DNA of 64,000 nt from contig NW_026923049.1 of the NCBI RefSeq assembly GCF_032062105.1, forward strand, positions 1 through 64,000, given 5' to 3'. Source of the stretch: Saccostrea cucullata. Its lineage: Eukaryota. Below the pieces are notes generated by a model, which had not been told where the DNA came from, did not search any database, and saw only the letters and a list, made by a program, of their open reading frames with translations. This document shows, in pieces, positions 37,429 to 55,043 of this stretch. The translations under genes and the position numbers were made by a program. The stretch's first letter is position 1, and the number at the start of each line of letters is the position of its first letter.

Positions 37429-38000
37429 TTAGTTTTGTTTGTTGTTCAACGCGTGTAACAATCTCCGAGACTTAAACAATCTTTTTCCAAACAGAAAATT
37501 GTCATAAGATGGAAGATCTTCCTCGGATACGGGTGGAAACTGCGAGACCCCAATTCTACAACAGCCTGTATACAGTGGGAATTTATCCCCCGCCCTGTCT
37601 GGGAACTGGGACTGAATTTCTTTGATGTCCTTTATAGATTCATTTTCCAGTATGGCTTTCACGTCAATACCAACACAGAATAATCTGTAATGTAAAACCA
37701 TCCAGAGGAAAACTATGGAAGCAATGTTCAGTTTTCTGGGTTTATCCTTGTCTTGAAAGATTGGGAGCTTGACACTGCAGATTAGAATATCATTGAGAGA
37801 ATCATACATTAGAATCCTGTAATGACGCGGGGAAATCAGGAGGTTTGGTATCAGAGAGTTTTGTAAATGTGGATAAAGTTTCCTTTGGATGAACGAGAAA
37901 ACAATTGTCTGGGAAATTATTTGATTTTCAACTCCTTGATTGCTGTTTACTCTTGTTTCACAAAATGTCCTTTCTTCTTCTTGGCAATCTTTTTCATCAA
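37429..38000 (-). CDS. Exon 4, terminal (VDEKDC...NQIISQTIVFSF...YDSLNDILICS...FLWMVLHY...)
   Basis: tttttgtag acceptor; the open frame extends ORF 37429..37809 upstream to 38000. Confidence 0.8.
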
Positions 38001-38449
38001 CTACAAAAAAAATTTAAAAAATATAACAACTTTATTTCATTCAAACATACATTTATGAAAAAGACAAACACATTATATTGACTTTGGATTATACAATGTC
38101 AAATCCCAAAATTGTACATTGTTTATCATGTTTATAATTGTGTATATAATAATTAGAAACTCGATAGGAAGCATTTCCGTTTGCCATTTGTATTTAGTAT
38201 TGTAGATGCACAGGTACATTGTAGTACATGATGTGACTCATTCCAACTACCAAAGAATTTTGTCAGCTTAGGCCATGAAAAATTAATTACCTGGTTCTCA
38301 GGCCTTTTTTCAAGAAATATGATGAGGGAAGGAGGCTTTTTTTTCTTTTTTATTGCCCCCAAAACATGATGAGGCAGCTTTTTACATTGTACAAAACCTC
38401 AAAAAATGATGAGGGAGGTTATTTGGTGTTTATATTTTATTGATTTAGC

Positions 38450-38486
<37 letters not shown>

Positions 38487-51052: not shown

Positions 51053-52158
51053 CAATAATACAACGAAACAGGATAAAAATAAAGCCAAAAATATTCAATT
51101 GGAAAAAATTTAAACACTGAAGATTTAAAAATTAATCAGGAGGGGCGGAAGAGGGGTGAAAAATCCAGAGACTTTGTCTCCCGTTCGAAGAATCACATGT
51201 ATTTATGTTATGAGATATCTGCATGTTTTTACCATAGTATAGAGAAAATTCGAATTAAGAAAAAAACGCGATCGTTTTTGGAAGAAAATAAGCCAGGTAG
51301 TACTCCAACACGGATTAAATAATGGAGATTTATTGACAGTTGAAGCATGTTATACGGAAAATTTAAATGGTTGGGATTTTTATAGCAAAAAACGAGTGAA
51401 AATACTTACCAACTGTGCTTTGCATGTATTGCATGTGTATAAATAATATTATCTTTTTTACTGGCCAACGGGGCGACCTACTTGCAGAAAACCACTAGCC
51501 CAACCCCCGGGTGTCGGTCGATTTTCATTGCAGACCTCTGATTCAAAAAAGAACTATCAGTGCATTCATTATATATATATATTTTTTAACAAAAGCCGGT
51601 TTTCAATAGGTATGTGTTTATGTGGACTACAGATTTCCTTTCCTTGGCTTTAAATAAATTCTACAACTGCATAATGTACGTATGAAGCATGTCAAACAAC
51701 TTACAAAACTTTTTTTCAATGTAGTGCAACAAAATAGTAAGACTTACCGCATTTGCTTTTTGTGTTTCCGAATTTCCTCAAAGCTATGCCAAATGCAGCT
51801 ACTTCCGTATCCTGCGCATGCGCAGTTAGTTTTTAAATATATGCGCATGCTCAGGTATTCGGAACTCCTCGATTCAATTACCGAACTCCTCTAATCAGCA
51901 GATTTCTGAATGTCTGAGCGTTTTGGGCTTAGGACATGTCCAAAATTTGGACAAAGTCTTTGTGAGGTTAAAACTAATTTTAGGTTTTTCGACCTCATAG
52001 AGTAATTTTGAACGTAAATAGACCTCTTCATTATGGGGTTGACCCCACAGTACCAAAAAAACCCCATACTGCTGGAAAATACGTTCATTTTACCCCATAA
52101 TGTACCTCTCGTAAGAACAGACAGACAGACGGACAGACAGACGGACGCCGGACAAAAT

Positions 52159-52202
<44 letters not shown>

Positions 52203-55043
52203 TAAAAAAGGGTCAATGAGGCACCCTTTTAAGAGATGAAAAAGGGCCTGAGAACCAAGAAATTAATTTTTTTTGGCCTTATCTTCCCATTCATCCCCCA
52301 TTATAAATACCCACTCATACACCACACATTACTGGACGAGAATTGATCAACCCCTGCTACCCCCCAACACCCACCTTTAAAAAAAGAATTTAATATATTA
52401 TTCAATACTCGTGTGAAGGGTTACTTCGTCATTTGATTTTTTCAGAGTCTCAACGTACCCTGTGATTCACTTCTAGATACAACAGCAGCTGACTGTGAAG
52501 AGCATATGATGTCTGGAAAACCGTGCCAGGCTGATTCCTCTCCTGGAAGAAACAGAGAAATATAATACACAAAACTCACCAAGGAATTTAGCTATCATCA
52601 TAGCATAGATATGAACACCTGATAAATGGGGGAGTTTTGTTAATTAAAGTTTCAAGTCATCTCATTATCATGCACAATTAGGTATATTTTTAAACTTGAC
52701 AATATTTTATTTTTCAAATTTTTAAACTTGACAATATTTTATTTTTTAATTTTATGTGATTTAAGGAATCACTGTCTAGTTTTGAGAGTATGCCAGGGCA
52801 TCAACAATAGTGGGAAACATTGGATAATTTGCATAACGGGCGAAGCCACTATTGTTGATGTCCCTGGCATATTCTCAAAACTAGACAATGATTCCTTATA
52901 TTTCCATTTCATTGTGAAATTAAATTGTAGACTTAGACATTAAAAATGTAGACTAATCGATTTAAATTACACGAGCACTTCCATGCCAAATTCAATAGTC
53001 TTCGCACACTGACGTCAAAAACAAAGGCAGCCGCACGAGATTTACATGCATAATTGACCTCCTTAGCGTCAGACACAGAGACAGATTCGCACGAGATTTG
53101 CATGCGTATTATGCCTCCTTAGCTGCTGACCTATCGACCTGCCTAATTTACATTCCGGCAGAATTATCAAGAATATACTCCCAAAACTTTCAAAGAGTTA
53201 TAACAGAGAAGAAAATTAGAAATGGAAATATTGAGGCTTTATAAGCAGTAAAAAAAAATATGCAACAGAGAGATTTAGAAACTGATGCTGCATATGACCG
53301 TTTAGATAAAACAGACATTACATTAATGCTTATTTTTATAGTATTCTGACCAAGCACTGTACAGTAGTACAATAGTTCATTTTACCTTAAATTAATATTT
53401 CTGAATATCTATACACTCATTCTAACTAGTATTTTCTCCTACACAAAGTCTGATCGATAAAACTGCCTTACACTTTTTTTTTACAGATATGTACCTATCC
53501 CAGTGCTCTCAAATACTGGTGTTGCAGGTGTTCTGTTACAATGATCCAGACCACACTGACATTTTCCTGCCCCGACTTTCACTTTTATCTGCTCGTTAAT
53601 TACACAAGACTGTCCCGGTGCTAGTCTCCTCAATAAATGTTCAGCCAGAACGAGGGTCTGTCCATCTATTTCCTGACTCCTCTCCTCTGTCGAATCAAGT
53701 CCTCCCAAAACTTGACTTAGACACTTTTCGTGACATTCTGAAATAGTAAAGAGAGGATTTCATTTAAGATAGGATTGTATATTGTATATTGTTTTTCACG
53801 TCCCTCTCAAGAATTTTTCACTTGCATGGAGACGTCACCGTATGCCAGTGAAGGGCTTCAATTTTTGACACTCGGGCCATTGAGCAGTGAGGGATCCTTA
53901 TCATGGCAATACCTGCTGCTGACAGGGGGCCTCGGTTTTTAAGGTCTCATCCGAAGGACCCACAACTTTCACTTCAAAGTGCCGAGCGAATGGCGAAGGA
54001 ACAGTTCCTACCCATTTTTTATTGACTAAGCTCAGTCGCGGCCGAGATTCAAACTCATGACCTCCAGTTCTCGAAGCGAGCACTCTACTGAATGAGCTAC
54101 CGAGAACATTATTTAAGATACGAAAAACTTGGCTTGTGAAAAGACAAAGTTTGGTAATGGCTAATATCACATCCCAAATAAGCCAGTAAGTTATCAAATT
54201 CATTAAAAATGTTTTTGTTTGTGATGTTATACCATCAGAATTAAAGGATTTAAGAAAATAATGACAAATAAACACGTCAAAGACTTTGAAAGAAAATAAG
54301 GTCTTTTTGTGATGTCTTCTCAGACTCTGTCTCTTTGTCATGTTTGATGATGTAATATGTAGAACATACAGGCATTTGTTTTTGTAATAAATTTTTAACC
54401 CATTGTGTAGTAATGGGAGAGAGAAAAAATTCAGCAGCCAGGTCAAACCCAAGTCCCCTGTATCTCTACCAACTAAACTATTTGGTCACTAGCGATTGAA
54501 CAAGCGTGACTGCCACGGTTAAGTATAATAATATTGTACTAATGGGATAAATATTCATTACAGAATCTGGTGCCTATGGTAGGAATATATTTTTAATAAT
54601 ACTTAAATTTAGCAACGTTTAATCATTTTTCTCTCTTAAAAAAAACTAACAGGAAACCTCATGTTTGTGACGAAAAAGACTGTTATACCTTTCTCTTTAA
54701 AATAATTATGAAGTATGTCAACCGCTCTTTGCTCGTCCTCATTCAGTTCCCGCGATTGATCTCTCAGGTCCAGCAATAGATCGATCCCTTTTGTGAAGAC
54801 ATCATCGAAGTCGATCATGTACAGAGAAGAGCTCCCTGCTGGGCCCACTTTCCTGAAGTCGCACCTGACATCTGTAAACAAGGCACTCGTACTCGCATTA
54901 CAGTCTGGTCCAAGTTGCAGAATAGCAAACGCTGGATAAACTAATTGAGTTGATGCTAAATTGAAGACAGTTTCCCATTCTGGTGACCTGTCATACCTGT
55001 TTTGTAGCCTGATCTTTTTCTGTTTTGGCGATTCTGCCGCCAT
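37429..55043 (-). CDS. Uncharacterised 4-exon gene, 417 aa, possible PD-(D/E)xK nuclease-like fold
   Basis: Exons 54689-55043, 53495-53737, 52459-52542 and 37429-38000; all introns GT-AG phase 1; 1254 nt with no internal stop. Confidence 0.8.
38450..39730 (+). mobile_element. HINE with ~166-bp Cg170-like array
   Basis: 5' aacaagaggcccatgggccacatcgctcacctg; GACA/GACG microsatellite; 3' gagccttcggctcaggtgagctaaaa. Confidence 0.9.
41690..42760. repeat. 64-bp satellite (ctcataaagataacagacaacactaaccccataaagtgtttggacagcaaccccactatgtact), ~16 copies
   Basis: Period 64 (41821 to 41885). Confidence 0.95.
43016..43336. mobile_element. Degenerate MITE
   Basis: caatcgca...cctcgaatgtatta / taatgcattcgagg...tgcgattg. 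Confidence 0.45.
43978..45953 (+). mobile_element. HINE with ~166-bp array
   Basis: Same termini as the 38450 element. Confidence 0.92.
46068..46644 (+). mobile_element. Short HINE (CGA-microsatellite subfamily)
   Basis: aaacatgaggcccaggggcc...ctcacctgagc start; canonical 3' end. Confidence 0.85.
46830..48307 (-). pseudogene. Decayed spliced gene fragments inside the large insertion
   Basis: Exon-like blocks at 48111-48307 and 47981-46830 (once the Kolobok-type element is removed) with AG/GT sites and coding-like translation broken by stops; product unknown. Confidence 0.4.
47060..47949. mobile_element. Kolobok-type non-autonomous DNA transposon
   Basis: TTAA|GGACATTGGCAAG ... CTTGCCAATGTCC|TTAA. 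Confidence 0.82.
48445..48530 (+). mobile_element. Single Tc1/mariner(pogo)-type terminus
   Basis: TA-CAGTCAAACTTGT...aagacaggtggcctctta; no partner end seen. Confidence 0.5.
52459..52542 (-). CDS. Exon 3 (GEESAWHGFPDIICSS...SQ)
   Basis: ttcttccag acceptor, CAGG|GTACGT donor, 84 nt. Confidence 0.78.
52762..53190. mobile_element. Crypton-like non-autonomous element with fold-back (52762-52898) and GCGAAGC
   Basis: ggaatcactgtctagttttgaga...caacaatagtgg / ccactattgttg...tctcaaaactagacaatgattcc; right boundary approximate. Confidence 0.55.
53495..53737 (-). CDS. Exon 2 (ECHEKCL...VLAEHLLRRLAPG...CQCG..HC...STGI)
   Basis: tttcag acceptor, G|GTACAT donor, 243 nt. Confidence 0.8.
53785..54102 (-). 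mobile_element. tRNA-derived SINE
   Basis: Minus strand begins cggtagctcattcagtagag (A box) ... gagtttgaatctc (B box), then a ~250-bp body and simple-repeat tail. Confidence 0.8.
54689..55043 (-). CDS. Exon 1 of the uncharacterised gene (MAAESPKQKK...YFKEK)
   Basis: aaaacATGG start context; AAG|GTATAA donor. Confidence 0.8.

What the first reader, a model, noticed from the sequence alone, without database searches (positions are those of the whole stretch)
37429..55043. Hidden intact 417-aa gene with restriction-endonuclease-like motif order
Four exons, not visible as a unit in the ORF track, join through three phase-1 GT-AG introns into a stop-free protein. The motif order is helix LAEHLL, a Cys cluster (CQCG..HC), WHGFPDII, FCETR, helix NQIISQ, then beta strands (LIPNLLIS, YRILMYD). 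This resembles PD-(D/E)xK nucleases (E...PD...ExK...Q), with K replaced by R. An N-terminal PKQKKIR looks like an NLS. It may be a nuclear nuclease-fold defence/effector protein or a domesticated transposon gene. The fold assignment is inference only.
Basis: partly seen in the sequence, partly recalled or inferred. Interest (0 to 1): 0.7.

Follow-up and report, generated by a model that had tools for sequence, protein, structure and literature searches.

The report
Bivalve family of restriction-enzyme-fold proteins
This is a real, spliced oyster gene, already catalogued as 'uncharacterized', whose protein is predicted to have the fold of bacterial restriction enzymes; it belongs to a large unstudied bivalve family in which about four in ten members keep the DNA-cutting motif, while this copy has likely lost it.

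Summary
The four-exon gene is real. It translates without a stop to 417 aa, letter for letter RefSeq XP_062601298.1 (Saccostrea cucullata, 'uncharacterized'), so it is not hidden. RNA reads show two of the three junctions, and dN/dS against a sibling copy is 0.19. AlphaFold models of this protein and of a relative have the PD-(D/E)xK restriction-endonuclease fold. Nearest solved structures are mitoribosomal mL37/mL65 (Z 9.4-11.1) and the nuclease domains of type IIG enzymes DrdV and BpuSI (Z 7.7-9.1). No Pfam family fits. The family is large (1143 clusters at 50% identity; 36 last-exon matches in this assembly); every named member seen is a bivalve. About 40% of 93 members keep E-x-K, scattered over the tree. 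This copy has E-T-R on a disordered loop and Ile at the helix-1 acid slot, so it is probably a dead nuclease kept by selection. Shared introns argue against a transposon. A defence role is inferred, not shown. The scan's earlier notes held nothing on this family.

The parts
54689..55043 (-). Coding exon 1 (aa 1-118): NLS-like PKQKKIR, N-terminal alpha/beta and helical part
53495..53737 (-). Coding exon 2 (aa 119-199): core helix 1 with near-invariant His152, Cys178-x-Cys180, Cys185 (likely zinc site)
52459..52542 (-). Coding exon 3 (aa 200-227): WHGxxD motif with Asp210 at the start of core strand 2
37429..38000 (-). Coding exon 4 (aa 228-417, stop): acidic loop with degenerate E242-T-R244, core helix 2 (Q254, Q258), strands, C-terminal helices
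38001..52458 (-). Intron 3 (14.5 kb), filled with 166-bp satellite arrays and other repeats
63207..63997 (-). Tandem duplicate of promoter and exon 1 (exon 63217-63570 in frame), 91.8% alike over 801 nt; its two residue differences are those of RefSeq isoform X2 (P0005); similarity ends 9 nt past the splice donor
37016..37021 (-). Only AATAAA within 529 nt after the stop; candidate poly(A) signal
   Evidence: motif only

Best explanation
The gene is a spliced oyster gene under purifying selection that encodes a predicted restriction-endonuclease-fold (PD-(D/E)xK) protein, likely nuclear, likely zinc-binding and likely without cutting activity, in a family multiplied in bivalves whose intact members would be metal-dependent nucleases. 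Shown: gene structure, expression of exons, purifying selection, family size, motif census. Predicted: the fold. Inferred: intact members (helix-1 Glu, WHGxxD Asp, E-x-K) bind Mg and cut nucleic acid in the nucleus; the many-copy, birth-and-loss pattern fits defence against foreign or mobile DNA; copies that lose E-x-K, like this one, stay as nucleic-acid binders or as modulators of active paralogues, as mL37/mL65 did on the mitoribosome.
For: Fold: model pLDDT 86.6, pTM 0.86; VIA-align over 48,161 chains gives mitoribosomal chains 5 and s at Z 9.8 and 9.6 (rmsd 4.3-4.6, 191-200 aligned), DrdV Z 8.0 (rmsd 3.3, 134 aligned), BpuSI Z 7.7, then mostly restriction enzymes, resolvases and Cas4/RecB-type nucleases by title. 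The relative P0049 gives the same ranking at Z 10.5, 9.4, 9.1, 8.9 and puts E135 at the start of helix 1, D198 at the start of strand 2 and E215-V-K217 at the end of an ordered strand 3, the canonical layout (PMC3424549, passages; BpuSI E21/D60/E76/K78, PMC3185434, passages). Family: E[VIML]K in 37 of 93 against 3.6 in shuffles; looser [ED]hK in 42 of 93 against 14.1, max 29; 23 changes on an 86-row tree, at least 13 forced, no more clustered than shuffles; K/R on helix 2 in 9 of 54 members without E-h-K and 0 of 39 with it (p 0.009, no correction for kinship), a known compensation (PMC3424549). This copy: K->R, residues 233-246 under pLDDT 50 with strand 3 taken by 219-222, Ile142 at the acid slot, Gln258 on helix 2; the S. 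echinata orthologue reads K-T-R. His152 92, Cys178 89, Cys180 88 of 93. NLS-like motif in the first 70 aa of 33 of 81 against 6.1 in shuffles. dN/dS 0.19 over 411 codons.
Against: No activity, localisation, metal binding or induction was measured. Foldseek gave no match at E<=0.001 for either model, and Z of 8-11 at 6-12% identity is modest. Model coordinates were not delivered, so clustering of the acids and of the His/Cys residues is unchecked. Catalytic residues can migrate in this superfamily (PMC3424549), and Glu141 and Asp143 flank Ile142, so inactivity is not proven. Disorder of 233-246 may come from the ragged alignment in that loop. Paralogue pairs show purifying, not positive, selection (dN/dS 0.06-0.48 in the 9 of 11 pairs that gave a value), which does not favour an arms race. 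Nothing links the family to infection: 0 papers name any of 6 member gene ids.
Confidence: 0.55

Rival explanations
1. This copy is itself an active nuclease with a non-canonical site (Asp210, Glu242, Arg244, with Glu141 or Asp143 from helix 1).
For: Asp210 and Glu242 are kept, K->R is conservative, purifying selection is strong on exon 4 (dN/dS 0.13), and residue migration is known (PMC3424549).
Against: The sister orthologue has Lys in place of Glu242 (P0006), so that residue is not constrained; the segment is disordered in the model while it forms an ordered strand in P0049; no helix-2 Lys or Glu makes up for it; in LlaGI the motif-III lysine is essential (K94A, PMC2790908, passages; Ala, not Arg).
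Confidence: 0.18
2. The family serves housekeeping RNA or DNA processing or binding, akin to its structural neighbours mL37/mL65, and its copy number reflects neutral duplication rather than defence.
For: mL37/mL65 are the top structural hits for both models and align from residue ~45-51, about 60 residues before the DrdV/BpuSI match begins; Atlas features rank mL37 first among named clusters (0.82, a lead only); only purifying selection was seen.
Against: Dozens of diverged paralogues with repeated loss of the catalytic motif are unusual for a housekeeping enzyme; members carry NLS-like motifs and acidic N-termini (D/E absent from the first 30 aa in only 2 of 81); the oyster has its own mL65 gene; no sequence signal links the family to it.
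Confidence: 0.2
3. The gene is a domesticated transposon gene or cargo of a mobile element.
For: Many dispersed copies; Crinkler-type REases are tied to transposons (PMC5289972, passages).
Against: Paralogues share intron positions: the phase-1 intron in the Gly200 codon is present in 14 of 14 loci where the motif was found (15 examined); no family-linked transposase frame appeared among stop-free frames of 150 aa or more in 32 loci (read by eye); the fold is not DDE; no relative in viral contigs, phages or prokaryote genomes (pattern scans, close relatives only).
Confidence: 0.05
4. The gene model is a chance joining of exons or a pseudogene.
For: Junction 3 was not seen directly; expression is low.
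Against: Identity to a RefSeq protein, two junctions in RNA, 82% identical full-length orthologue, dN/dS 0.19.
Confidence: 0.02

Closest known systems
Mitoribosomal proteins mL37 and mL65 (MRPL37, MRPS30; Pfam PF07147 PDCD9)
   Same: Best structural match (Z 9.4-11.1, rmsd about 4, 187-207 residues), reaching beyond the nuclease core; animal proteins described as repurposed endonucleases (PMC8998825, passages) and as metazoan-specific duplicates (PMC1950548, passages). Chain s = mL65 is; chain 5 = mL37 is recalled.
   Different: 6-9% identity, no profile match; single-copy mitochondrial ribosome parts, whereas this is a many-copy family with NLS-like motifs, a His/Cys cluster, and intact catalytic motifs in about 40% of members.
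N-terminal nuclease domain of type IIG restriction-modification enzymes (DrdV, BpuSI; MmeI_N and HsdR_N in the Atlas)
   Same: Core fold (Z 7.7-9.1, rmsd 2.9-3.7, 134-153 residues) and the order helix-1 Glu, strand-2 Asp, strand-3 E-x-K.
   Different: No methyltransferase or target-recognition domain; spliced animal gene; acidic insertion before E-x-K in most members; His/Cys cluster.
Eukaryotic stand-alone and Crinkler-type REases (PDDEXK_12, DUF7924, part of Pkinase_fungal clusters)
   Same: Atlas structural neighbours at TM 0.34-0.41 by query; eukaryotic lineage-specific expansions of the same superfamily.
   Different: Fungal or algal clusters; no kinase, NTPase or Crinkler header domain was detected here; TM under 0.5 by query; the defining paper (Zhang et al. 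2016) could not be read.

Membership tests
PD-(D/E)xK superfamily (restriction endonuclease-like fold) | alpha-beta-beta-beta-alpha-beta core | tested here: met
   Predicted models; VIA-align
PD-(D/E)xK superfamily (restriction endonuclease-like fold) | Asp at the start of core strand 2 | tested here: met
   Asp210 in WHGFPD; D in 90 of 93 members; D198 before strand 199-202 in P0049
PD-(D/E)xK superfamily, active enzyme (this copy) | Glu-x-Lys at the end of core strand 3 | tested here: not met
   E242-T-R244, in a segment under pLDDT 50; strand 3 is 219-222; orthologue K-T-R
PD-(D/E)xK superfamily, active enzyme (family) | Glu-x-Lys at the end of core strand 3 | tested here: met
   37 of 93 strict (shuffles 3.6); strand 210-216 ending in E215-V-K217 in P0049; 12 of 21 places read in this assembly
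PD-(D/E)xK superfamily, active enzyme (this copy) | Acidic residue on core helix 1 | tested here: inconclusive
   Family slot (His-10) is E/D in 72 of 93 but Ile142 here; Glu141 and Asp143 flank it
PD-(D/E)xK superfamily, active enzyme | Acids and Lys clustered in space; Mg-dependent cleavage | not testable with these tools
   Model coordinates are not delivered; no assay
mL37/mL65 (PF07147) | Sequence-profile match to PDCD9 | tested here: not met
   0 of 93 members at E<=0.05; hhalign probability 0.4% and 0.3% against two oyster mL65 frames; block-profile z 0.7
mL37/mL65 (PF07147) | Mitochondrial presequence | tested here: not met
   Composition only, no predictor: D/E in the first 30 aa in 79 of 81; NLS-like motif enriched
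mL37/mL65 (PF07147) | Shared fold beyond the nuclease core | tested here: met
   Aligned range starts at 45-51 of the models and 90-104 of the chains, about 200 residues; residue-level alignment not seen
Type IIG restriction-modification enzyme | Fused methyltransferase and target-recognition domains | tested here: not met
   Match limited to DrdV 2-143 and BpuSI 6-173; no Pfam or NCBIfam hit
Crinkler CR-REase effectors | Header domain plus NTPase or kinase partner | tested here: inconclusive
   No Pfam hit in 93 members beyond singletons; the CR-REase profiles and Zhang et al. 2016 were not available
Domesticated DNA transposase | DDE/RNase H transposase fold | tested here: not met
   Fold searches return the restriction-endonuclease fold
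Domesticated DNA transposase | Terminal repeats and target-site duplications around copies | not tested
   Only exon structure and long frames of 32 loci were examined

The most novel reading that the evidence does not exclude
Bivalves carry dozens of nuclear, zinc-binding restriction-enzyme-like nucleases that are the still-active sister group of the mitoribosomal pseudo-nucleases mL37/mL65: one type IIG-like nuclease entered early animals, one branch was silenced and built into the mitoribosome, and the other multiplied into a defence system of active cutters and dead regulators.
Probability: 0.2. Interest if true: 0.82.

Novelty: new variant of a known kind. Interest (0 to 1): 0.52.

Why it matters
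Animals have few PD-(D/E)xK proteins, mostly single-copy repair or RNA enzymes (own knowledge). Here is a family with no Pfam model, over a thousand 50%-identity clusters and dozens of copies per oyster assembly, about 40% of them with an intact restriction-enzyme-type site. If those cut nucleic acid, bivalves have an undescribed nuclease arsenal, relevant to herpesvirus mortality in aquaculture and to transposon control. The family also offers a candidate active relative for mL37/mL65, whose origin is known only as 'repurposed endonucleases'. The gene in this window is by itself the less exciting, probably dead, member.

Tried and rejected
Pfam, NCBIfam, PADLOC (three single-member hits, best E 0.001) and PDB sequence searches gave no family. 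Foldseek on PDB and viral models gave nothing at E<=0.001. A by-eye register match between family motifs and mL65 did not hold up: hhalign 0.4% and 0.3% and a block profile z 0.7 with blocks out of the expected register; the template was one oyster sequence, so the test is weak. Homodimer prediction with zinc gave 'no answer' (score 0.00): no evidence either way. No relatives in phages, viral contigs or prokaryote genomes. Laying reads on the whole 18.5-kb gene was swamped by repeats. Helix-1 acid and E-x-K do not co-vary across members (Fisher p 1.0). Literature: ten searches showed no paper on this family in their listings; one search found 0 papers for six gene ids; none of the 25 rows listed or the 15 held the fold term. 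The library lacks most subscription papers, and supplements (expression tables) were not searched. Zhang et al. 2016 was not held. Earlier scan notes: nothing relevant. E151 as catalytic residue rejected (32 of 93). The Pfam domains on P0024 (release factor) look like a fused gene model, and the name 'CHD1' on P0017 has no domain support; neither was followed.
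Full report
Observation. The product equals RefSeq XP_062601298.1, 'uncharacterized protein LOC134263017 isoform X1' of Saccostrea cucullata. RNA reads of organism A cover the exons, leave repeat-free intron bins empty, and cross joint 52542/53495 (6 and 4 reads in X23 and X24) and joint 53737/54689 (3 and 8 reads plus contigs, carrying the variant of a sibling copy). The third joint was not displayed. Against the sibling copy on L020/L021, which shares upstream flank at 87-95% and may be the other haplotype, dS is 0.218 and dN 0.040 over 411 codons. 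The gene is real and constrained, but it is not hidden.

Family. Exon 4 matches 36 places in this assembly (a lower bound, and several are near-identical pairs that may be haplotigs). A profile of 17 relatives finds 1143 clusters at 50% identity with E<=0.001, 125 with E<=1e-30; many are fragments and only the best 150 were listed. Of 27 clusters looked up, 20 carried a species name, all bivalves: oysters, pearl oyster, mussels, scallops and clams. The range outside bivalves is untested. No Pfam, NCBIfam or PADLOC family fits. Paralogues share exon borders, and the phase-1 intron in the Gly200 codon is present in 14 of 14 loci where the motif was found, of 15 examined. This is an old, intron-bearing host family spread by DNA duplication.

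Fold. AlphaFold on a 93-sequence alignment gives pLDDT 86.6 and pTM 0.86. Foldseek finds nothing at E<=0.001. VIA-align ranks mitoribosomal chains 5 (mL37, name recalled) and s (mL65) first at Z 9.8 and 9.6 over about 200 residues, then the nuclease domains of the type IIG enzymes DrdV (Z 8.0) and BpuSI (Z 7.7), then NucC and mostly other restriction enzymes, resolvases and Cas4/RecB-type nucleases. A second member, P0049, gives the same order with higher Z (10.5, 9.4, 9.1, 8.9; up to 11.1 on a second look). The Atlas's own models point weakly the same way: PDDEXK_12, MmeI_N, HsdR_N, McrC. The fold call is a prediction, but two models and three methods agree.

Active site. The canonical site is a helix-1 Glu, an Asp at the start of strand 2 and Glu-x-Lys on strand 3 (PMC3424549, passages; BpuSI E21, D60, E76, K78 in PMC3185434, passages). 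P0049 shows this: E135, D198, E215-V-K217 on an ordered strand. Across 93 members the Asp is kept in 90, the helix acid ten residues before His152 in 72, and E[VIML]K in 37 against 3.6 by shuffling; a looser pattern gives 42 against 14.1. On a quick tree of 86 rows (7 under 330 aa dropped) the motif changes 23 times, at least 13 forced, and is no more clustered than shuffled labels; ancestral presence with repeated loss is the simplest reading. Nine of 54 members without it have Lys or Arg on helix 2, against 0 of 39 with it (not corrected for kinship), which resembles the known migration of the lysine. In this assembly 12 of 21 places read keep E-h-K.

This copy. It has Asp210, but E242-T-R244 in place of E-x-K, on a segment modelled as disordered while residues 219-222 fill strand 3, Ile142 at the helix acid slot and Gln258 on helix 2. 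Its S. echinata orthologue has K-T-R and Met at the same places, and the Pinctada sister has G-V-K. So the site has decayed while the protein stays under selection. NLS-like motifs are enriched at the N-terminus (33 of 81 against 6.1).

How it most likely works. Shown: structure, expression, selection, family size, motif census. Predicted: fold. Inferred: intact members are nuclear Mg-dependent nucleases; the many-copy pattern with repeated inactivation fits a defence or genome-conflict role (my odds about 45%); dead copies such as this one bind nucleic acid or tune active paralogues. Against a defence arms race, all pairs with a value show purifying selection (9 of 11 pairs, 0.06-0.48), and no expression link to infection was found or tested. 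Catalytic residues can migrate, so inactivity is likely (about 70%), not proven.

Relation to known systems. It works like a PD-(D/E)xK protein and belongs to that superfamily by fold. It is not a type IIG enzyme (no methyltransferase), not mL37/mL65 by sequence (the oyster has its own mL65 gene), and not shown to be a Crinkler REase (PMC5289972, passages; the source paper was not held). mL37/mL65 are described as repurposed endonucleases forming a pseudo-dimer (PMC8998825, passages) and as a metazoan duplication (PMC1950548, passages). That they are the best structural match, with aligned ranges starting some 60 residues before the bacterial enzymes', is the basis of the novel case; it has no sequence support. 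Ten literature searches showed no description of the family (listings and abstracts only, supplements not searched). PMC2790908 was read in passages, PMC12957317 in outline only.

Verdict. A real, already annotated gene; a new family-level fold assignment as far as these searches reach; a probably dead member of a large bivalve nuclease-fold family whose intact members are the better targets. Interest 0.52; new variant of a known kind.

Noticed in passing
window 28012-35424 (+): Ty3/Gypsy LTR element with 300-nt repeats 100% identical, stop-free gag (28760-29683) and pol (29842-33612) frames, and a third 259-aa frame with C2H2 zinc fingers (33881-34657) inside the repeats: a very young insertion with an unusual extra gene.
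   Followed up: partly
window 63207-63997 (-) and L031 1-4338: Tandem duplicate of the gene's promoter, exon 1 and several kb of upstream DNA; its exon 1 has no synonymous difference from exon 1 of the sibling copy on L020. Real alternative first exon or a haplotype folded into the assembly.
   Followed up: partly
L020 and L021 against window exons: The sibling copy differs far more in exon 4 (dS 0.38) than in exon 1 (dS 0.04); RNA runs hold both forms (9-nt deletion at 53518 in 1 of 6 reads of X23, 5 of 5 of X24). Old balanced alleles or gene conversion are possible. L020 1-500 is 100% identical to window 51399-51898, unexplained.
   Followed up: no
window 13366-15000 (+) and 20684-21283 (-): Single-frame B-box/NHL (TRIM-like) gene on the plus strand, near an exon of a MICAL gene on the minus strand; probably nested in its intron.
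   Followed up: no
window 38666-40977, 44234-45682, 61573-62780: Arrays of a 166-bp satellite next to short ACAG/GACG repeats, heavily covered in RNA runs; resembles the oyster Cg170 satellite inside Helitron-like elements (recalled).
   Followed up: no
window 58013-58597: Palindromic element with 23- and 54-bp inner repeats in both orientations, also present in L020 and L031; MITE-like.
   Followed up: no
L034/L035 (G000:C17639:111414-119743): Oyster mL65 (MRPS30) gene found as a control; no second PF07147 locus for mL37 was returned.
   Followed up: partly
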